DNA from: Dehalococcoidia bacterium
Lineage (GTDB): Bacteria; Chloroflexota; Dehalococcoidia; UBA6926
Length of the DNA stretch: 64,000 nt
Reading direction: 5' to 3'
Assembly: GCA_965243495.1 (NCBI GenBank)
Contig: CBDEUZ010000007.1
Coordinates: forward strand, 295,743 to 359,742
The position numbers and the translations under genes are program-made. Shown here in pieces: positions 58,696 to 64,000 of this stretch. The notes beneath the pieces were generated by a model. It saw only the letters and a program-made list of their open reading frames with translations, was not told the DNA's origin and did not search any database. Each line of letters opens with the position of its first letter. The first letter of the stretch is position 1.

Positions 58696-59190
58696 ATGTC
58701 CGCACTCAGTATAGCCCTAAGGGCGATCGAAAGGTTCTCACCCGCCAAGCCGGCGAACGCGCACTGTGATATTCCGTGTGGCATCTATGATCCACACGCG
58801 GCGCAGATTGCGGCTCACACGGTGGTGCGGATGGTGAATCTGATCGAAGATCTGGGCGAGGTTTCAGACGCGGAGTCGCGCAACAAGCTCATACGCTACA
58901 TCGCCGTCAAGGAAGAGCATGCTGAGCTCGCCAAGAAGGAGCTCCGCATCCTGTGGGGCGACTATTTCCGCCCCGAGCACCTGGAGCAGCATCCAAACCT
59001 GCACAACCTGTTCTTCACAGCGATGAAGCAGGGCTCCGCCGCGCGGCAGAGCGTCAGTATGGACAACGCTCAGGCGCTTGTGTCGACGGTGCAGGAGATC
59101 GCTGAGATTTTCTGGGCGACCAAGGGCGCCGAGACATCTCGACAGCCGTCTCGTCAGACTTCCGGCGGGGAGATCGTCTATCCGGCATAA
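58696..59190 (+). CDS. sodN: nickel-containing superoxide dismutase precursor
   Basis: 164 aa. A 23-aa leader is followed by the Ni-hook HCDIPCGIYDP. The rest is co-linear with Streptomyces SodN (…ELAKKELRILWGDYFRPEH…). Confidence 0.9.
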   Translation: MSALSIALRAIERFSPAKPANAHCDIPCGIYDPHAAQIAAHTVVRMVNLIEDLGEVSDAESRNKLIRYIAVKEEHAELAKKELRILWGDYFRPEHLEQHPNLHNLFFTAMKQGSAARQSVSMDNAQALVSTVQEIAEIFWATKGAETSRQPSRQTSGGEIVYPA

Positions 59191-59218
59191 CGGCCGGATT
59201 CACCCTACCAGACCTTAA

Positions 59219-59262
59219 ACGAGCAGTCCGGCGATGTCGCCGGACTGCTCGTTTTCGTCGTT
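59219..59262. terminator. bidirectional rho-independent terminator between sodN and the convergent downstream gene
   Basis: A perfect 15-bp stem ACGAGCAGTCCGGCG/CGCCGGACTGCTCGT with a 4-nt loop, flanked by TTTTCGTCGTT on the plus strand and an A-rich run on the other side. Confidence 0.65.
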
Positions 59263-59324
59263 AAGGTGTCAACCTCGCCGGGTAACGCCACAGGCCTTGG
59301 CCCTGTGACCAGAATATCGGCAGC

Positions 59325-59786
59325 TCACGGGTACCCAATGTCTGGATCAAAAGATGGCTCTGAAGCAACCTGTCCGCCGGCGTTTAGGTACCAGCCGTAG
59401 TTGCCGCTCGGGGCGTTCGTTGCGCCGACGTTGAGCGTGGTCTCGGCAGATGTGATATCGGCCGTGGATTCCAGGCCGCCGTGTTCTGCAAGCAGCTCAA
59501 ATGCGAGCCAGGAGCACGTCTCCCCTCCGTCTGAGCCGTCGCATTGATAGCCCGCCGCATTCCCTTCCCGCGGCACGCCAATCTCGCCTGAGAGAGTTGG
59601 CCACTCCGGTTGGGGAAACACCCGGGCCTCCTGGTAGATAGGGATGGCGTCCTGCAGCAGAGAACGATCGGCGTCATGAGCACGTTCGCCGAGGATGCCG
59701 CGAACGGCCGGCGCAAGCAGAATGGCAAGTCCAACCAGAACGATGATGATGATTAGGGCGGATAGTTCCCTTGTGAACCGTCGCAC
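59325..59786 (-). CDS. hypothetical secreted/membrane-anchored protein with a pilin-like N-terminal helix and a C-terminal Cys pair
   Basis: 153 aa. N-terminal RRFTRELSALIIIIVLVGLAILLA resembles, but does not match, a prepilin motif. Disulfide candidate YQCDGSDGGETCSW. Confidence 0.4.
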   Translation of the reverse strand: MRRFTRELSALIIIIVLVGLAILLAPAVRGILGERAHDADRSLLQDAIPIYQEARVFPQPEWPTLSGEIGVPREGNAAGYQCDGSDGGETCSWLAFELLAEHGGLESTADITSAETTLNVGATNAPSGNYGWYLNAGGQVASEPSFDPDIGYP

Positions 59787-59813
59787 GATGGGGCCTTATT
59801 GGGCCGCCGCCGC

Positions 59814-60044
59814 TCAGGAGGCTTCGCGCTTGATTTCCAGGCTCTCGCCGGGGGCGAGCGCAACGCGCTTGACGGTCAAGTTCATCTTCAGAAGCCAGTA
59901 CCAGAGAGTGCCCTTGCTGATCCCGAGTTCTTCGGACATGCCCGGCAATCCAAGTTCGTTGTACATTTCGGGCAAAAGACGCTCGAGGGGGCGCCCATAG
60001 CGCTCCTCAACCTGCTTCATCAGCTTGGTTTTTCCGCGTGCCAT
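59814..60044 (-). CDS. small helix-turn-helix protein
   Basis: 76 aa, predicted HTH (MSEELGISKGTLWYWLLKM). Confidence 0.4.
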   Translation of the reverse strand: MARGKTKLMKQVEERYGRPLERLLPEMYNELGLPGMSEELGISKGTLWYWLLKMNLTVKRVALAPGESLEIKREAS

Positions 60045-60130
60045 ACTGCCTCCGGAGCGTGGCCAGTCTATTCGCGCAGGAGCGGAATTGTCAAGTATTC
60101 TAAGACTGGTTTCAAACCGGGTTCAAAGAC

Positions 60131-60160
60131 TTGACAGATAGAATCTGACCTCAGTAGGAT
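60131..60160 (+). promoter_or_regulatory. sigma70-like promoter of the aro leader (TTGACA-18nt-TAGGAT)
   Basis: Perfect -35 TTGACA at 60131..60136, -10 TAGGAT at 60155..60160. Confidence 0.5.
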
Positions 60161-60169
60161 TTTGGCGTG

Positions 60170-60244
60170 ATGATTGGTGCTGGCTATCGCTATTACGACT
60201 TTAGCTACCCCCTGCGGGGTGGGTTGCCGGCGTCGCTCGTCTGA
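60170..60244 (+). CDS. Tyr/Phe-rich attenuation leader peptide (24 aa, MIGAGYRYYDFSYPLRGGLPASLV)
   Basis: ATG at 60170, codons TAT-CGC-TAT-TAC-GAC-TTT-AGC-TAC at 60185..60208, TGA at 60242. It sits between the promoter and a terminator, upstream of DAHP synthase. Confidence 0.5.
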   Translation: MIGAGYRYYDFSYPLRGGLPASLV

Positions 60245-60270
60245 TTGACGCGCATAGTAGAGAAAAAGGC

Positions 60271-60310
60271 AAAGCCCCCCCGCATCAGTCGGGGGGGCTT
60301 TCCATATATT
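60271..60310 (+). terminator. attenuator terminator hairpin (AAAGCCCCCCC-gcatcagtc-GGGGGGGCTTT)
   Basis: Perfect 11-bp stem followed by a TTTCCATATATT U-rich stretch. The upstream segment GCGGGGTGGGTTGCC (60215..60229) can pair with GGCAAAGCCCCCCCGC as an antiterminator. Confidence 0.5.
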
Positions 60311-60359
60311 CAGGAGTGTTAGAGAGCAAAGGCCGTGTGGCCGGAGGAAAGCGGACGCA

Positions 60360-61382
60360 ATGATCGTCGTAATGCGCACTGACGCAACACAAGAAAACGT
60401 AGACGGCGTTGTCGAGAAGATTCAAGAACTTGGCTATCGGGCCGACGTGGAGCCCGGCGAGTTCACCAGTGTTGTTGCCGTCATCGGTGACACGACTGCG
60501 GGAGGCGATGACGTCCTGAGAATCCTGCCGGGTGTGGATCACGTAGTCCGCATCATGAAGCCGTATAAGCATGTGAGCCGTGATTTTCGAAAGCGGGACA
60601 CCATAGTTGATTTGCCGAATGGCGTGAAAATTGGCCCGAGCGCGCCGGTGGCCATGATGGTGGGACCGTGTGCGGTGGAGTCCGAAGAGCAGGTGCGACA
60701 GGTTGCTGAAATGGACCGGAAACTCGGCTTCACCATTCTTCGCGGCGGCGCGTTCAAGCCACGCACCTCGCCGTACACGTTCCAGGGGCTGGGCCTTGAG
60801 GGACTGCGCATCCTGAGGAATGTCGCAGATGAGTACGGTCTGATGGTCATCACAGAAGTGATGTCTGAGATGGACGTGGAAATGTGCGAGGAATACGCCG
60901 ACATCCTCCAGATCGGCGCTCGCACCATGCACGCGTTCCGGCTGCTCAAGACCGTCGGACAAACGCGCAAGCCGGTTTTGCTGAAGCGCGGATTCCACGC
61001 CACCATCCGCGAGTGGCTGCTGAGCGCTGAGTACATCATCAGCGAGGGCAATTGGAACGTCATCATGTGTGAGCGCGGCATCCGCAGCTTTGACGATGAG
61101 TTCTCACGAAACGTCCTTGATCTGACGGCCGTGCAGATACTCAAAAGAGAGAGCCACCTGCCTGTCGTTGTTGATCCCAGCCACGGCACGGGTGAGCGTG
61201 ATCTGGTAATGCCAATGGCGAAGGCTGCCATCGCAGCAGGAGCGGACGGGCTTATCATCGAAGCGCACCCCGACCCTACGACGGCGCTTTCTGATGGAGC
61301 GCAGTCTCTGCCAGTGGACTGGCTGCCGGAGTTGCAGAAGCAGGTCAACGGCATTGCCAAAGCAATTGGACGGGAGGTCTAG
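60360..61382 (+). CDS. aroF: 3-deoxy-7-phosphoheptulonate (DAHP) synthase, type I-beta with N-terminal regulatory domain
   Basis: 340 aa, KPRTSPYTFQGLG and the (beta/alpha)8 core. GGAGG Shine-Dalgarno. Confidence 0.9.
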   Translation: MIVVMRTDATQENVDGVVEKIQELGYRADVEPGEFTSVVAVIGDTTAGGDDVLRILPGVDHVVRIMKPYKHVSRDFRKRDTIVDLPNGVKIGPSAPVAMMVGPCAVESEEQVRQVAEMDRKLGFTILRGGAFKPRTSPYTFQGLGLEGLRILRNVADEYGLMVITEVMSEMDVEMCEEYADILQIGARTMHAFRLLKTVGQTRKPVLLKRGFHATIREWLLSAEYIISEGNWNVIMCERGIRSFDDEFSRNVLDLTAVQILKRESHLPVVVDPSHGTGERDLVMPMAKAAIAAGADGLIIEAHPDPTTALSDGAQSLPVDWLPELQKQVNGIAKAIGREV

Positions 61383-61475
61383 GGCAAAGGAGTCTCAGCA
61401 TTCTTCGCTGCGCTCGGAATGACATGGCGCGGGGCATGACGTGAGAAGGCGGTGGTCAGTAGAATGCGTAGCAAC

Positions 61476-61562
61476 GGCAGGATGGCGGAGTGGACAAACG
61501 CACCAGGCTGTAAACTTGGCGCCCTAAGGGCTACGGGGGTTCGAATCCCTCTCCTGCCACCA
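61476..61562 (+). tRNA. tRNA-Tyr (anticodon GTA)
   Basis: 87-nt class II tRNA. Acceptor GGCAGGA/TCCTGCC, anticodon loop CUGUAAA, long variable arm, T-loop GGTTCGAAT, encoded CCA. A TAGAAT -10-like hexamer lies 10 nt upstream. Confidence 0.9.
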
Positions 61563-61597
61563 CTCCGCCCTTACCTCATAACGCCCACGAGGCGTGT

Positions 61598-63640
61598 GTG
61601 ATGTTGTTTGAACTTTCAGACGACCTGCTGAAGCGGCACCCAACGTATGTTGTGGGCGTCGTATTCGTGCGTGGCGCGGCCAAGCCCTCCCAAGAAAACG
61701 TCAGCGCACTCCAACGCGCGCTGCAGGAGGCGGCACAGGCTGTGCCCTGGAAGCTTGGCGGGGCCGGGTTGCACGGCCATCCGGCAATTACTCGTTGGGA
61801 GCAGGCCTTTGAGGCAGAGGGAATCAACCCGCGAACTCATATGCCGTCGATCGCGGCCCTCGCCCAGCGGTGCCTGCGCGGCGACTATATTCGGTTAATC
61901 AACACTGCGACAGATATTGCCAACCTTATTTCTTTGAGACACCTCGTCCCCGTCGGAGCGCATGATGTAGATCGGCTGCCGGGAGACATTGCTGTGCGCT
62001 TGAGCACCGAAGGGGACACGTACACGGGTTCCGCTGATGATGAAACCGAAGAACTACCCTCCGGCGAACCCGTGTACGCAACGGGTAGCGATATTCGGAC
62101 CCGTCGCTGGGTATGGCGGCAGGCTGAAGCGGCCATGACGACGCCGGAGAGCAGCACGATCGTCTATCCGGTCGACGGCTTCATGGACGGAACTGCTGAC
62201 CGCGTGGAAACGGCGACCCAGGAGCTGGCGCTGTTAGCCAAGGCTGCCCTGGGCGGAGATGTTTCTTACGGCTATGTGAGCGTCGACAATCCTTCGCTTC
62301 CTGAGGATGATGCTTCGCTGACCCAGGTGAATGAAGTTGAGGCGGCCACTGCCCTGCTATTATCCCTCGGGTCAGCAGATGAAGGCGCCGAATCATACCC
62401 ATCCCCGCCTGCGGATGAGGCGCTCGCCAAATGGTCGCTATCTGATCTACTCCGCCGGGGAATCCTGGACGGCGTGATTGTTGAAGAAGAACTGCAGAAG
62501 GACCTCGATTCTGACCGGCGTCTCACCATCTACGAGGGGTTTGATCCGACAAGCACCAGCCTTCACATCGGCCACTATCTTTCGTTGCGCGTCTTGCGAT
62601 GGTTCCAGTTGCAGGGCCACCGCGTAATCATGCTGTTCGGTGACTTCACTGCCCGCATCGGCGATCCAACAGGCCAATCAGCGGAACGCCAACAACTCAC
62701 GCAAGACCAGGTGCTCGCCAACGCCCAGGAGTGGCAGGCGCAGGTATCACATGTGCTCGACCTGGGTGGAGACAACCCCGTTGAAATCAAGTGGAATGGT
62801 GAATGGCTGGACCGGCTCACACTGCGAGACATGATCGAAATCTCGGCGAACATGACGGTACAACAGCTCATAGAACGGGACATGTTCCAGGAACGACTCT
62901 CACAGCAACGTCCCCTCCATCTACATGAGACGCTTTACCCGCTGCTGCAGGGTTACGACTCTGTGGCGATGAGCGTAGACGCAGAGCTTGGCGGTCGTGA
63001 CCAAATGTTCAATATGATGGTCGGGCGAGACCTTGTACGGAATTACAGTGGCAAGACGAAGCATGTGCTGATGACGCCGCTCATCCCGGGTCTCGATGGC
63101 CGCAAGATGAGCAAGTCATATGGGAACACGGTCGACCTCACCGAGAATTCTGTCGACATGTTCTTCAAACTGACACAGGTGAGCGATGAATTGCTGCCGA
63201 TGTTTATGAGCGTTCTCACGGACACGCCGGACGAGGAGATCGAAGAGATTCGCCTCCGCCTGTCATCTGAGTCCAATCTGCAGGACGCCCGGGAGCGTTT
63301 CGCATGGGCCGTCACAGAGCGCTTGCACGGCGCCGATGAAGCGCAACGAGCGCAGGCAGAATTCACACGTGTGGTGGATGAAGGCAACATGCGACAAGAC
63401 GTGGAGGAGGTATTCCTGAAACCCCCGACGGAGCCTCTGACCATTCTGGACGTTGCAGTGGCGACAGGCCTGGCTACGAGCCGGGGCGATGCACGCCGCC
63501 TCATCCAGCAAGGTGGTCTTGAGATAAACGACCGCCGCCACACCGAGCCCACGCTGCAGCTCTCGCCGGAGGACGTGGAAGGAGCAATCGTCAAGATGGG
63601 CAAGCGCGGATTCGTGCGGATGAAGGTGGATCGCGCATGA
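61598..63640 (+). CDS. tyrS: tyrosine--tRNA ligase fused to an N-terminal solo-B3/4 (PheT editing-like, COG3382-type) domain
   Basis: 680 aa in one frame. Residues ~290-680 are TyrRS (HIGH = LHIGHY, KMSKS = KMSKSYGN, C-terminal S4-like). Residues 1-~270 match B3/4-domain motifs (HMPSIAALAQRCLRG..INTATDIANLISLRHLVPVGAHDVDRLPGDIAVRLSTEGDTYT ... GEPVYATGSDIRTRRWVWRQAE). No candidate start codon separates the two parts. Confidence 0.85.
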   Translation: MMLFELSDDLLKRHPTYVVGVVFVRGAAKPSQENVSALQRALQEAAQAVPWKLGGAGLHGHPAITRWEQAFEAEGINPRTHMPSIAALAQRCLRGDYIRLINTATDIANLISLRHLVPVGAHDVDRLPGDIAVRLSTEGDTYTGSADDETEELPSGEPVYATGSDIRTRRWVWRQAEAAMTTPESSTIVYPVDGFMDGTADRVETATQELALLAKAALGGDVSYGYVSVDNPSLPEDDASLTQVNEVEAATALLLSLGSADEGAESYPSPPADEALAKWSLSDLLRRGILDGVIVEEELQKDLDSDRRLTIYEGFDPTSTSLHIGHYLSLRVLRWFQLQGHRVIMLFGDFTARIGDPTGQSAERQQLTQDQVLANAQEWQAQVSHVLDLGGDNPVEIKWNGEWLDRLTLRDMIEISANMTVQQLIERDMFQERLSQQRPLHLHETLYPLLQGYDSVAMSVDAELGGRDQMFNMMVGRDLVRNYSGKTKHVLMTPLIPGLDGRKMSKSYGNTVDLTENSVDMFFKLTQVSDELLPMFMSVLTDTPDEEIEEIRLRLSSESNLQDARERFAWAVTERLHGADEAQRAQAEFTRVVDEGNMRQDVEEVFLKPPTEPLTILDVAVATGLATSRGDARRLIQQGGLEINDRRHTEPTLQLSPEDVEGAIVKMGKRGFVRMKVDRA

Positions 63641-64000
63641 GTTTCGATAGACCGACGGTCGGATTTCTCCAGCCGGAGGCGACCTTCACCCACCTCGCGG
63701 CCATCGCTCACTTTGGCCGGGACGCCATCTTCGAACCGATGGAGTCGGAGGCAATCTGCCAGGCCGTTCAGCAGGGTGAGATTGAATACGGCGTACTGCC
63801 TATCGAGAACCTGCTTGAAGGGACCGTAGGAGCGACGCTGGACTTCGTGACGGCGACGGAGGGTATCAATGTGGTGGCTGAAGTCTTCTTGCCCATTCAC
63901 CACCACCTGCTGACCAAGACATCACTGGAACAGGTAACACGCATCTACTCACATCCGCAGGCATTGAGCCAGTGCCGGCGGAGCATCCGGCGCTTGTCGG
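63637..64000 (+). CDS. pheA: prephenate dehydratase (N-terminal part, continues past the window end)
   Basis: The ATG overlaps the tyrS TGA (ATGA). PDT N-terminal motif VGFLQPEATFTHLAA. Confidence 0.85.
   Translation, partial: MSFDRPTVGFLQPEATFTHLAAIAHFGRDAIFEPMESEAICQAVQQGEIEYGVLPIENLLEGTVGATLDFVTATEGINVVAEVFLPIHHHLLTKTSLEQVTRIYSHPQALSQCRRSIRRLS

What the first reader, a model, noticed from the sequence alone, without database searches (positions are those of the whole stretch)
60131..60362. Tyrosine-codon leader peptide and terminator/antiterminator upstream of DAHP synthase: a candidate Tyr-responsive attenuator
A near-consensus promoter (TTGACA-18-TAGGAT) is followed by a 24-codon ORF in which 5 of 8 consecutive codons are Tyr/Phe (Y-R-Y-Y-D-F-S-Y). 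Next comes a perfect 11-bp GC hairpin plus U-rich tail, ending 50 nt before the DAHP synthase ATG. The leader's 3' part (GCGGGGTGGGTTGCC) is complementary to the 5' arm of the terminator, giving the mutually exclusive pairing expected of a trp/phe/his-type ribosome-mediated attenuator. Leaders of this class enriched in Tyr are rarely annotated, and attenuation control of the first committed shikimate enzyme is unusual. The regulated unit appears to continue into tRNA-Tyr, TyrRS and pheA.
Basis: partly seen in the sequence, partly recalled or inferred. Interest (0 to 1): 0.8.

Follow-up and report, generated by a model that had tools for sequence, protein, structure and literature searches.

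The report
Tyrosine-codon leader attenuator before DAHP synthase
A short tyrosine-rich mini-gene and a switchable RNA hairpin ahead of the first aromatic amino acid synthesis gene probably raise that gene's expression when charged tyrosine tRNA runs low, which is a textbook bacterial mechanism found here with a new amino acid specificity in an uncultured Chloroflexota lineage.

Summary
At 60131-60311 there is a promoter (TTGACA-18-TAGGAT). It is followed by a 25-codon ORF (MMIGAGYRYYDFSYPLRGGLPASLV) and a 12-bp GC hairpin, 58 nt before the ATG of a type I-beta DAHP synthase.

All three elements recur upstream of the orthologous gene in every Dehalococcoidia relative fetched. This includes 38-39% GC lineages whose leaders can no longer be aligned by sequence.

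- **Coding signal:** the Tyr codons are kept through synonymous TAT/TAC changes, UUU (Phe12) is invariant, and the stop codon stays in place.
- **RNA switch:** the G-rich 3' part of the ORF can pair either with an upstream C-run (1:2) or with the terminator's 5' arm (2:3). Compensatory changes between lineages support both pairings.
- **Other families:** Rfam gives no T-box or other match.

This is a ribosome-mediated (trp/phe-type) transcription attenuator. Its leader is Tyr-dominant exactly in the lineages where tRNA-Tyr and TyrRS follow DAHP synthase. Related lineages without them have mixed Phe/Tyr/Trp leaders.

A Phe-Tyr-Phe leader before Corynebacterium glutamicum aroF is a precedent, so this is a new member of a known kind. 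Function, amino acid specificity and the extent of the regulated transcript remain untested.

The parts
60131..60136 (+). -35 hexamer TTGACA
   Evidence: Invariant in the Dehalococcoidia orthologs, with TTGACG in L025.
60155..60160 (+). -10 hexamer TAGGAT (18-nt spacer)
   Evidence: TAGGAT or TACGAT in all orthologs. The leader start codon lies 6-10 nt downstream, and 6-7 nt in most.
60167..60244 (+). Leader peptide ORF, 25 codons from GTG 60167 (24 from ATG 60170), stop TGA at 60242-60244. There is no transcribed Shine-Dalgarno sequence, so it is probably leaderless.
   Evidence: The ORF is intact in all relatives. The first codon is always GTG or ATG. The stop is always at codon 26 (TGA 16, TAA 3, TAG 1).
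60185..60208 (+). Control codons: Tyr7 (60185), Tyr9 (60191), Tyr10 (60194), Phe12 (60200), Tyr14 (60206)
   Evidence: counts over 20 distinct sequences. Tyr7 20/20 (TAT 16, TAC 4). Tyr9 18/20. Tyr10 19/20 (TAC 14, TAT 5). Phe12 TTT 20/20. Tyr14 15/20.
60176..60234 (+). Composite 'protector' structure. The outer helix pairs 60176-60188 with 60222-60234. It encloses the 1:2 hairpin UACCCC (60206-60211) / GGGGUG (60216-60221).
   Evidence: The 1:2 hairpin is paired in 100% of cells. The outer helix is paired in 79% and has 4 pairs with changes on both sides.
60213..60228 (+). Region 2, the 5' strand of the antiterminator (UGCGGGG-U-GGGUUGCC), lying inside the leader ORF
60235..60253 (+). Small conserved hairpin with the leader stop codon in its loop. 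It forms in both conformations.
   Evidence: (helix 4: 92% paired, 2 pairs with changes on both sides).
60268..60284 (+). Region 3, the 3' strand of the antiterminator. It comprises the terminator 5' arm, flanking GGC, and the first loop bases.
   Evidence: -29.0 kcal/mol, p=0.007. (86.6% of cells paired against 47-57% in slid controls).
60271..60301 (+). Terminator hairpin (3:4), 12 bp with a 7-nt loop
   Evidence: Relatives have a canonical U-tract (UUUUUUU in L021-23 and L029-34).
60302..60311 (+). Weak U-containing tail CCAUAUAUUC
   Evidence: A bona fide convergent-gene terminator at 59217-59254 has the same AAA-stem-TTT style with a short T run.
60332..60349 (+). Conserved GGCC-N4-GGCC hairpin (60332-60343) abutting the DAHP synthase Shine-Dalgarno GGAGGA (60344-60349)
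   Evidence: Kept in all high-GC orthologs, including a GGUC/GGUC wobble variant in L004 and L008. Its function is unknown.
60360..61382 (+). Regulated gene: type I-beta DAHP synthase with an N-terminal ferredoxin-like regulatory domain
   Evidence: PF18152 plus PF00793. (NF006421, 445 bits).
61436..61562 (+). Promoter-like site ATGACG-18-TAGAAT (61436-61465) and tRNA-Tyr(GTA) (61476-61562)
   Evidence: The TAGAAT is conserved in high-GC relatives.
61598..63640 (+). B3/4-domain-TyrRS fusion (680 aa)
63637..64000 (+). Prephenate dehydratase (pheA) N-terminus. Its ATG overlaps the TyrRS stop (ATGA).

Best explanation
The element is a ribosome-mediated (leader-peptide) transcription attenuator controlling DAHP synthase.

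**Proposed sequence of events**
1. Transcription starts about 7 nt after TAGGAT, that is, at or next to the GTG/ATG of a 25-codon leader ORF. The ORF is therefore probably translated as a leaderless message.
2. The nascent RNA first folds into a protector structure. UACCCC pairs with GGGGUG, enclosed by an outer helix.
3. When Tyr-tRNA(Tyr), and probably Phe-tRNA(Phe), is plentiful:
   - The ribosome runs through codons 7-14 and over region 2 to the stop codon.
   - Region 2 is then covered, or re-pairs with region 1 behind the ribosome.
   - The 12-bp hairpin at 60271-60301 forms and RNA polymerase terminates, giving a transcript of about 135 nt.
4. When charged tRNA-Tyr is scarce:
   - The ribosome stalls on Tyr9, Tyr10 or Phe12.
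   - Its footprint covers region 1 but leaves region 2 (60213-60228) free.
   - Region 2 pairs with the terminator's 5' arm (60268-60284) as that arm emerges. The terminator cannot form and transcription continues into DAHP synthase, and possibly into tRNA-Tyr, TyrRS and pheA.

**Shown here:** the sequence elements, their conservation, the coding signature, the competing pairings and their covariation.

**Inferred:** the transcription start site, leaderless translation, the kinetic competition, and which amino acid is the effective signal.
For: **Conservation**
- The promoter, ORF and hairpin occur in 25/25 Dehalococcoidia loci at 74-98% DAHP synthase identity.
- They also occur in L028-L034, L040-L043 and the FL-less L035, L036, L038 and L039.
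- A covariance model built only from the high-GC clade finds full-length hits at the same position in the diverged lineages:
  - L021-23 and L029-30: E 4e-5 to 1e-3
  - L036 and L039: E 0.004
  - L032: E 0.009
- The model finds no second copy in the window.

**Coding signature**
- Synonymous TAT/TAC changes occur at Tyr7 and Tyr10.
- Phe12 is invariant.
- Stop-to-stop substitutions occur at a fixed position.
- Leaders that cannot be aligned to each other are all aromatic-rich:
  - MRLYDFKEYFIYY...
  - MNYQTFKYYFMY...
  - MARSAYYYFAFTY...

**RNA structure**
- The terminated-state structure is paired in 90.2% of cells against 43-47% when slid, with 8 pairs changed on both sides.
- The antiterminator is paired in 86.6% of cells against 47-57% when slid.
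- RNAalifold independently recovers the 1:2 hairpin, the stop-codon hairpin and the terminator.
- The 2:3 duplex beats shuffles in most lineages (p=0.001-0.1).

**Compensatory changes between lineages**
- The window has GCGGGG[U]GGG pairing with CCC.CCCCGC.
- L021 has CGGGAG[U]GGU pairing with ACC.CUCCCG.
- The U in region 3 pairs with an A in both region 2 and region 4 in L021, L032 and L036.
- In L012 and L014, a G-to-A change in region 2 is matched by a C-to-U change in a terminator loop base. That base only matters for the 2:3 pairing.

**Ribosome geometry**
- In the low-GC lineages, truncated-transcript folding gives the antiterminator only when the ribosome footprint sits on the aromatic codons.

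**Biological coherence**
- Tyr-dominant, Trp-free leaders occur in the 4 lineages with tRNA-Tyr and TyrRS downstream. Mixed F/Y/W leaders occur in the 6 lineages without them.
- The enzyme carries the ferredoxin-like domain through which the T. maritima enzyme is inhibited by Tyr or Phe (PMC5526877).
- There is a precedent in the C. glutamicum aroF leader peptide.
Against: - There is no experimental or transcript evidence.
- The U-tract in the window's clade is short. The consensus scan called the hairpin a terminator only on the minus strand.
- At equilibrium the terminator forms whatever the ribosome position.
- In the high-GC clade the antiterminator is thermodynamically preferred in truncated transcripts even without a ribosome. 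Discrimination would therefore have to be kinetic, which cannot be computed here.
- The leader stop codon lies 19 nt beyond region 2. A ribosome parked at the stop does not itself cover region 2.
- The overall folding z-score is only -1.47.
- There is no Shine-Dalgarno sequence, so translation depends on an unverified leaderless start.
- Within the close clade covariation is modest, because most stem positions are invariant G-C pairs.
Confidence: 0.8

Rival explanations
1. The architecture is the same attenuator, but the effective signal is phenylalanine or general aromatic starvation rather than tyrosine. Stalling at the invariant UUU codon (Phe12) is what uncovers region 2, and the Tyr codons contribute little.
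For: - UUU at codon 12 is the only aromatic codon that is 100% invariant.
- With an A-site footprint reaching +12 nt, a stall at Phe12 covers region 1 exactly. Stalls at Tyr7-Tyr10 fall a few nt short, and a stall at Tyr14 also covers part of region 2 (geometry).
- The C. glutamicum Phe-Tyr-Phe leader responded to Phe limitation but not to Tyr limitation (PMC11802643).
- Sister lineages have mixed F/Y/W leaders.
Against: - Tyr codons outnumber Phe 4:1.
- Tyr7, Tyr9 and Tyr10 are kept through synonymous changes.
- Some relatives gained an extra Tyr at codon 11.
- Tyr dominance tracks the presence of tRNA-Tyr and TyrRS downstream.
Confidence: 0.2
2. The short ORF encodes a functional micropeptide, or the roughly 135-nt terminated transcript is a small RNA. 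The hairpin is simply its constitutive terminator, and DAHP synthase is transcribed from elsewhere or by constitutive leak-through.
For: - The ORF and hairpin are conserved.
- The equilibrium fold always contains the terminator.
- A conserved SD-proximal hairpin downstream could mark a separate 5' end.
Against: - No second promoter was found between 60311 and 60360.
- The C-terminal half of the peptide differs completely between lineages and is even read in a different frame relative to the conserved GGGRGUGG RNA motif. Only the aromatic cluster is shared.
- Complementarity of region 2 to the terminator arm, with compensatory changes, would have no purpose for a plain terminator.
- The element is always placed directly upstream of DAHP synthase.
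Confidence: 0.06
3. The element is a T-box or another ligand- or protein-binding riboswitch, in which uncharged tRNA-Tyr, an amino acid or a protein stabilises the antiterminator. The ORF is incidental.
For: - The G-rich GGGUGGGUUGCC loosely recalls the T-box motif.
- T-boxes regulate Tyr genes in other Gram-positive-type lineages (general knowledge; PMC1262725).
Against: - No T-box or any riboswitch hit appears, even at E<=10. The best leader-family hit is Phe_leader at 17.6 bits against a 55-bit threshold.
- The leader is only about 135 nt and has no Stem I or specifier loop.
- The ORF keeps its start, frame, Tyr codons and stop across all lineages.
Confidence: 0.02
4. The hairpin belongs to the minus strand as a terminator, or the region codes for the 103-aa antisense ORF at 60068-60379.
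For: - The scan scores the hairpin as a terminator on the minus strand, with tail GCCTTTTTCT.
- A mechanical 103-aa ORF exists on the minus strand.
Against: - No minus-strand gene ends upstream of it. The neighbouring minus-strand gene (59814-60044) starts, rather than ends, on that side.
- The upstream A-run is lost in L016, L019 and L025, whereas the downstream U-run is kept or longer in all relatives.
- Single-base indels in L002, L005, L009 and L010 would break the antisense frame.
Confidence: 0.01

Closest known systems
Classical leader-peptide attenuators of enterobacterial amino acid operons (trpL, pheL/pheA, pheM/pheST, hisL; Rfam Trp_leader, Phe_leader RF01859, His_leader)
   Same: - A short ORF with clustered codons for the regulated amino acid.
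- Regions 1-4 with mutually exclusive 1:2, 2:3 and 3:4 pairings.
- An intrinsic terminator just upstream of the first biosynthetic gene.
   Different: - The control codons are mainly Tyr, and no Tyr leader family exists in Rfam.
- There is no sequence or model membership (Phe_leader 17.6 bits against a 55-bit cut-off).
- There is no Shine-Dalgarno sequence, and the start codon sits 6-7 nt after the -10, so the ORF is probably leaderless.
- The leader ORF extends 19 nt beyond region 2.
- The host is Dehalococcoidia (Chloroflexota).
- The target is DAHP synthase, which in E. coli is controlled by the TyrR and TrpR repressors (PMC11802643).
Corynebacterium glutamicum aroR leader peptide upstream of aroF (DAHP synthase), Neshat et al. 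2014 as cited in PMC11802643; first noted in PMC4046766
   Same: - Ribosome-mediated attenuation of the first shikimate-pathway enzyme by an aromatic-codon leader (Phe-Tyr-Phe).
- Actinobacterial leader peptides can also lack a ribosome-binding site (ilvB leader, Morbach 2000, cited in PMC4046766).
   Different: - The phylum differs, and homology was not tested because I had no aroR sequence.
- aroR has one Tyr and two Phe and responded to Phe, not Tyr.
- Here there are 3-5 Tyr and 1-2 Phe, and the cluster continues into tRNA-Tyr and TyrRS.
Tyr-specific T-box riboswitches (tyrS and aromatic biosynthesis genes in Firmicutes)
   Same: - They sense tRNA-Tyr charging.
- They control readthrough of a terminator by an alternative antiterminator.
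- They regulate TyrRS and aromatic-pathway genes.
   Different: - In a T-box the sensing is direct tRNA binding, not ribosome stalling.
- No T-box model match was found here.

Membership tests
Ribosome-mediated (leader-peptide) transcription attenuator | A short ORF in the 5' leader with a cluster of codons for the end-product amino acid(s) | tested here: met
   - There are 5 aromatic codons in 8.
- The ORF is unique among 553 short ORFs in the window.
- It is conserved in all lineages, with synonymous Tyr changes.
Ribosome-mediated (leader-peptide) transcription attenuator | An intrinsic terminator between the leader ORF and the structural gene | tested here: met
   - A 12-bp GC hairpin at 60271-60301.
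- Relatives have a canonical U7 tract.
- In the window the U-tract is short, but it resembles the convergent-gene terminator at 59217-59254.
- Termination activity itself was not tested.
Ribosome-mediated (leader-peptide) transcription attenuator | An antiterminator (2:3) that uses the terminator's 5' arm and a segment reachable by the translating ribosome | tested here: met
   - Duplex of -29.0 kcal/mol, p=0.007.
- Paired in 86.6% of cells against 47-57% in slid controls.
- Cross-lineage compensatory changes.
Ribosome-mediated (leader-peptide) transcription attenuator | A 1:2 (protector or pause) pairing that a ribosome stalled at the control codons disrupts | tested here: met
   - The 1:2 hairpin is paired in 100% of cells and is predicted independently by RNAalifold.
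- Footprint modelling works cleanly in the low-GC lineages and only approximately in the window's clade.
Ribosome-mediated (leader-peptide) transcription attenuator | The leader ORF is actually translated | tested here: inconclusive
   - There is no Shine-Dalgarno sequence.
- The start codon lies 6-10 nt after the -10, which suggests a leaderless mRNA.
- The coding signature supports translation.
- No direct evidence is available.
Ribosome-mediated (leader-peptide) transcription attenuator | Readthrough responds to charging of the cognate tRNA | not testable with these tools
   This needs reporter assays, Term-seq or an in vitro coupled system.
Rfam Phe_leader (RF01859) and other curated leader families | A score at or above the family gathering threshold | tested here: not met
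   - Phe_leader scores 17.6 bits against 55.
- Thr_leader scores 15.3 bits against 55.
- Nothing reaches a gathering threshold.
T-box riboswitch (RF00230) | A match to the T-box covariance model (Stem I with specifier, and the T-box antiterminator bulge) | tested here: not met
   No hit appears even at E<=10 on 60050-60400.
C. glutamicum aroR-aroF attenuator | Sequence or structure homology of the leader and the same DAHP synthase class | not tested
   Only the functional analogy could be established from the literature.

The most novel reading that the evidence does not exclude
The attenuator may head a self-referential 'tyrosine supply' transcript. Stalling caused by scarce Tyr-tRNA(Tyr) would drive readthrough into DAHP synthase and then on into three further genes. 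These are the gene for the sensed tRNA-Tyr itself, a TyrRS carrying an editing-type B3/4 domain, and pheA. If so, it would be the first tyrosine-specific leader-peptide attenuator. It would also be the first in which the sensor tRNA gene lies inside the transcript it regulates, and the leader would be translated from a leaderless mRNA in Chloroflexota.
Probability: 0.3. Interest if true: 0.6.

Novelty: new member of a known kind. Interest (0 to 1): 0.45.

Why it matters
- **New specificity and phylum.** It extends textbook ribosome-mediated attenuation to an uncultured Chloroflexota (Dehalococcoidia) lineage and to tyrosine. Tyrosine has no curated leader family in Rfam.
- **Natural comparison set.** Leader codon composition shifts from Tyr-dominant to mixed Phe/Tyr/Trp together with operon content (tRNA-Tyr and TyrRS present or absent). 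This can be used to study how attenuator specificity evolves.
- **Two-level feedback.** The leader senses charged tRNA-Tyr and tRNA-Phe at the level of expression. The enzyme carries the ferredoxin-like domain that mediates Tyr/Phe inhibition in T. maritima.
- **Practical use.** The roughly 23 distinct aligned leaders are enough to seed a new RNA family and improve annotation of these MAGs.
- **Limits.** The mechanism is not new, and DAHP synthase attenuation has a precedent in Corynebacterium.

Tried and rejected
- **Rfam scans.** The gathering-threshold scan of the whole window found only tRNAs. The permissive scan of 60050-60400 found no T-box or riboswitch, and only sub-threshold terminator-driven hits (rnk_pseudo on the minus strand, Phe_leader 17.6 bits).
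- **Whole-leader MFE against shuffles.** Not significant (z=-1.47).
- **Equilibrium folding of the full leader with a moving ribosome footprint.** Uninformative, because the terminator is always present at about 0.95 probability in most sequences. It was replaced by folding transcripts truncated before region 4.
- **First automatic terminator finder.** It failed on the weak U-tract and was redone.
- **Minus-strand readings.** The minus-strand terminator and the antisense 103-aa ORF were both rejected. The reasons were gene orientation, loss of the upstream A-run in relatives, and frame-breaking indels.
- **Scan for other leader-peptide-like ORFs with amino acid runs.** Nothing convincing was found. 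Upstream of aroQ (19198) there is no leader.
- **Covariance-model alignment of diverged lineages (A4).** It aligns the terminator and a shared UAC-UUU-A motif but not region 2. Cross-lineage covariation was therefore read from duplex predictions rather than from a formal pair count.
- **More distant DAHP synthase loci.** These have no leader: Nitrospiraceae L024, Thermoanaerobaculia L026, L037, L044, Deferribacter L045 (gene inside an aro operon) and Gemmatimonadetes L046.
- **Look-up of P0039.** It found nothing.
- **Literature searches.** No paper was found on attenuators or leader peptides in Chloroflexi, on leaderless transcripts in Dehalococcoidia, or on tyrosine-codon leader peptides.
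Full report
**1. What is in the sequence**

- A promoter-like site TTGACA-18-TAGGAT lies at 60131-60160. It is a 10/12 match. The region 59000-64000 has 7 such sites against 1.8 expected.
- Six nucleotides after the -10 begins GTG ATG ATT GGT GCT GGC TAT CGC TAT TAC GAC TTT AGC TAC CCC CTG CGG GGT GGG TTG CCG GCG TCG CTC GTC TGA (60167-60244). It encodes MMIGAGYRYYDFSYPLRGGLPASLV.
- A hairpin AAAGCCCCCCCG-CAUCAGU-CGGGGGGGCUUU lies at 60271-60301.
- The ATG of a 340-aa gene follows at 60360.
- That gene is a type I-beta DAHP synthase with an N-terminal ferredoxin-like (FL) domain (Pfam PF18152 plus PF00793; NCBIfam NF006421, 445 bits).
- The leader ORF is the only one of 553 ORFs of 15-40 codons in the window with at least 5 aromatic residues in 8 codons.
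- Its 4 Tyr in 25 codons compare with 2.0% Tyr in neighbouring proteins (P=0.0013).
- The hairpin is one of only five perfect hairpins of at least 9 bp in the 64 kb window.

The weak point is the tail.
- After the GC core come UUU, which is paired with AAA, and then CCAUAUAUUC.
- The consensus scan therefore scored the hairpin as a terminator only on the minus strand.
- However, the terminator between the convergent Ni-SOD gene and ORF 59325-59786 (59217-59254) has the same AAA-stem-TTT design with a short T run. That design therefore looks normal for this genome.

**2. It is not a known RNA family**
- Rfam at gathering thresholds finds only five tRNAs in the window.
- A permissive scan of 60050-60400 gives no T-box or riboswitch.
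- The best leader-family match is Phe_leader at 17.6 bits against a threshold of 55, and it is driven by the terminator.

**3. Comparative evidence**

Loci from public genomes.
- A scan with the DAHP synthase returned 27 loci.
- Twenty-four are Dehalococcoidia or Chloroflexota MAGs at 74-98% identity.
- The upstream 262 nt show the same promoter, a short ORF and a terminator hairpin in all of them.
- This includes a 34-39% GC lineage (L021-L023) whose leader cannot be aligned to the window at sequence level. It reads MRLYDFKEYFIYYCRESAGVVVV and is followed by AAAAACCCUCCCGGAAAUAUGGGAGGGUUUUUUU.

Further lineages from the metagenome scan and from look-ups of more distant homologues.

| Locus | DAHP synthase identity | Leader peptide |
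|---|---|---|
| L040 | 81% | MARSAYYYFAFTYAREMGAATAIE |
| L032-34 | 74% | MNYQTFKYYFMYADGICTAEVFSRSR |
| L041 | 60% | ...WSYYRFFYGPDKAGGFSRL |
| L042 | 61% | MLNRAIRSLYFWSFYPPQGEWEDLGRR |
| L043 | 60% | ...WFGFYYFYFALDATGG... |
| L036/L039 (68-73% GC, enzyme lacks the FL domain) | 59-60% | MREIPGAVSFFWYFYFTHRPGGARAV |
| L035 (same group) | 59% | ...TFHYWFYFEPTAREGRA |
| L038 (same group) | 60% | ...SFSCRFYFGPTLGRHRL |

A single family.
- A covariance model built only from the high-GC clade finds full-length matches at exactly these positions in the diverged lineages (E from 4e-5 to 0.016).
- It finds no second copy in the window.
- The leaders therefore appear to be one family.
- More distant DAHP synthase genes have no such leader. 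This covers the Nitrospiraceae, Thermoanaerobaculia, Deferribacter and Gemmatimonadetes loci and L037 and L044.

**4. The ORF behaves as coding sequence with selected control codons**

Counts are over 20 distinct sequences of the window's clade.

| Position | Result |
|---|---|
| Codon 1 | Always GTG or ATG |
| Tyr7 | 20/20 (TAT 16, TAC 4) |
| Tyr9 | 18/20 (one Phe, one Asp) |
| Tyr10 | 19/20 (TAC 14, TAT 5) |
| Codon 11 | Became Tyr in three sequences |
| Phe12 | UUU in 20/20 |
| Tyr14 | 15/20 |
| Codon 26 | Always a stop (TGA 16, TAA 3, TAG 1) |

- The distance from the -10 to the start codon is 6-7 nt in most sequences and 10 nt at most.
- No Shine-Dalgarno sequence can be transcribed from this promoter.
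- I infer a leaderless leader peptide.
- This has an actinobacterial precedent in the C. glutamicum ilvB leader 'without ... a ribosome binding site' (Morbach 2000, cited in PMC4046766).

**5. Alternative RNA structures**

The structures.
- The MFE of the leader contains a 6-bp hairpin UACCCC/GGGGUG (60206-60211 / 60216-60221).
- It sits inside an outer helix (60176-60188 / 60222-60234).
- There is also a small hairpin with the leader stop codon in its loop (60235-60253), and the terminator.
- RNAalifold on 23 aligned leaders recovers these independently.

Pair counts.
- On that alignment the terminated-state structure is paired in 90.2% of cells against 43-47% when partners are slid. Eight pairs change on both sides.
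- The antiterminator pairs 60213-60228 with 60268-60284. It has 15 pairs and two bulges at -29.0 kcal/mol, against -17.9 +/- 3.7 for shuffles (p=0.007).
- It is paired in 86.6% of cells against 47-57% when slid.

Evidence between lineages, which is stronger.
- Anchored on a conserved bulged U, the window has GCGGGG[U]GGG pairing with CCC.CCCCGC.
- L021 has CGGGAG[U]GGU pairing with ACC.CUCCCG.
- The C-to-U change in region 3 is matched by G-to-A in both region 2 and region 4 in L021, L032 and L036.
- In L012 and L014, a G-to-A change in region 2 is matched by a C-to-U change in a base that lies in the terminator loop. That base matters only for the 2:3 pairing.
- The peptide encoded over region 2 differs between lineages and is read in a different frame. 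Region 2 is therefore conserved as RNA, not as protein.

**6. Mechanism, and what is only inferred**

Folding results.
- Folding transcripts truncated before region 4, with a 28-nt footprint moved along the ORF, gives classical behaviour in the low-GC lineages.
- There, region 3 is sequestered by region 2 only while the ribosome sits on the aromatic codons. It is not sequestered without a ribosome, or with the ribosome further downstream.
- In the window's clade the antiterminator is favoured thermodynamically even without a ribosome.
- With the full transcript the terminator always wins.

What follows from this.
- Discrimination in the window's clade must be kinetic.
- Without a stall, region 2 would be trapped in the locally formed protector structure, or covered by the ribosome crossing codons 15-21, while region 4 is being made.
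- This step is inferred and cannot be tested by computation here.

Stall geometry.
- Stalls at Tyr9, Tyr10 and Phe12 best expose region 2.
- A stall at Tyr14 would cover part of region 2, and Tyr14 is the least conserved aromatic position.
- This geometry, the invariance of UUU, and the report that the C. glutamicum Phe-Tyr-Phe leader responded to Phe but not Tyr (PMC11802643) make 'Tyr-specific' less certain than 'aromatic-responsive attenuator'.

**7. Context**

Downstream genes in the window.
- tRNA-Tyr(GTA) at 61476-61562.
- A 680-aa B3/4-domain-TyrRS fusion at 61598-63640.
- pheA, whose ATG overlaps the TyrRS stop.

Synteny.
- The order DAHP synthase, tRNA-Tyr, TyrRS is conserved in all lineages with Tyr-dominant, Trp-free leaders. 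These are the window clade, L040, L021/L029-31 and L032-34.
- The six lineages without tRNA-Tyr and TyrRS downstream have mixed Phe/Tyr/Trp leaders.
- This correlation is the best argument that the Tyr bias is functional.

Extent of the regulated transcript.
- No plus-strand terminator separates DAHP synthase from the tRNA.
- However, a TAGAAT -10 immediately before the tRNA is conserved in the high-GC relatives.
- The downstream genes therefore probably also have their own promoter.
- Whether the attenuator controls them cannot be decided here.

Enzyme-level regulation.
- The FL domain mediates inhibition by Phe or Tyr in the T. maritima enzyme (PMC5526877).
- That parallels the leader's codon content.

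**8. Comparison with what is known**
- Functionally and architecturally this is a trp/phe/his-type ribosome-mediated attenuator. All structural membership criteria tested were met.
- Translation of the leader and the response to tRNA charging could not be tested.
- It is not a member of any curated Rfam leader family, and it is not a T-box.
- Attenuation of DAHP synthase by an aromatic leader peptide is already described for C. glutamicum aroF (PMC4046766; PMC11802643).
- A 2005 survey of Actinobacteria found no RNA element for tyrosine genes (PMC1262725).
- My searches found nothing on such leaders in Chloroflexi.

**9. Verdict**

The element is real, conserved and well explained. It is a new member of a known kind, with a new amino acid bias, a new phylum, a probable leaderless leader, and a tRNA-Tyr and TyrRS gene cluster downstream. 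It is of moderate interest. It is useful as a seed for a new RNA family and as a natural series for studying how attenuator specificity evolves, but it does not change any concept.

Noticed in passing
window 61598-63640 (+): The TyrRS carries an extra N-terminal domain of about 280 aa containing a B3/4 domain (PF03483, aa 67-205). Its best solved relatives are the free-standing canavanyl-tRNA deacylase CtdA (9f7e, E=3e-10) and a 'B3/4 domain-containing protein' (9mkl). The PheRS-beta editing domain matches much more weakly. The fusion is present in the high-GC clade and L040 but absent from the low-GC lineages, whose TyrRS aligns only from residue ~264. It may proofread mis-acylated tRNA-Tyr.
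   Followed up: partly
window 61436-61562 (+): A tRNA-Tyr(GTA) gene sits between DAHP synthase and TyrRS in every lineage with a Tyr-dominant leader. It has a conserved TAGAAT -10 about 10 nt upstream and only about 36 nt between the tRNA 3' end and the TyrRS start. tRNA and synthetase are therefore probably co-transcribed and separated by processing.
   Followed up: partly
window 59814-60044 (-): A divergently transcribed 76-aa ORF (MARGKTKLMKQVEERYGRPLERLLPEMYNELGLPGMSEELGISKGTLWYWLLKMNLTVKRVALAPGESLEIKREAS) looks like a helix-turn-helix protein. It is 96-100% identical across genomes whose neighbouring proteins are only 55-98% identical. It has no Pfam or NCBIfam hit. It shares the 120-bp promoter region with the leader and is absent from the low-GC lineages and L040. 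It could be a DNA-binding regulator.
   Followed up: partly
L003 3913-3943 and L011 3912-3942 (terminator hairpin): The terminator loop is the exact reverse complement (GACUGAUGC against GCAUCAGUC) inside an otherwise identical perfect palindrome. This is a hairpin loop 'flip' inversion that has occurred in two genomes.
   Followed up: no
window 60332-60349 (+): A conserved 4-5 bp hairpin GGCC-N3-4-GGCC directly abuts the DAHP synthase Shine-Dalgarno GGAGGA. It is kept in all high-GC orthologs, with a double C-to-U change giving G.U pairs in L004 and L008. It is absent in the low-GC lineages. Its function is unknown; it could be a 5' stabiliser or a translation element.
   Followed up: no
window 59217-59254: A perfect 17-bp hairpin (AAACGAGCAGTCCGGCG-ATGT-CGCCGGACTGCTCGTTT) lies between the convergent Ni-superoxide dismutase gene (58696-59190) and ORF 59325-59786. 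It is a likely bidirectional terminator. It shows that this genome's terminators have short A/T flanks.
   Followed up: partly
L035, L036, L038, L039, L041, L042, L043 (upstream of DAHP synthase): Sister leaders carry all three aromatic amino acids, for example FFWYFYF, YFWSFY, FYYFYF and WSYYRFFY. Each has a CCUCCC/GGGAGG terminator and a GGGAGG region 2. In L035-L039 the enzyme lacks the ferredoxin-like domain and the GC content is 68-73%. The phylum of that group is unknown.
   Followed up: partly
L020 5015-7737: In one genome (OZ242191.1) about 2.7 kb is inserted between DAHP synthase and tRNA-Tyr, breaking the otherwise invariant spacing.
   Followed up: no
L041 3886-5015: An IS3-type transposase pair (HTH_Tnp_1 and rve) lies directly downstream of the leader-controlled DAHP synthase in one 60%-identity lineage.
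   Followed up: no
L002 7273-8154: The pheA ortholog is split into two ORFs (162 aa and 129 aa) in this MAG. This is either a frameshift or an assembly error.
   Followed up: no
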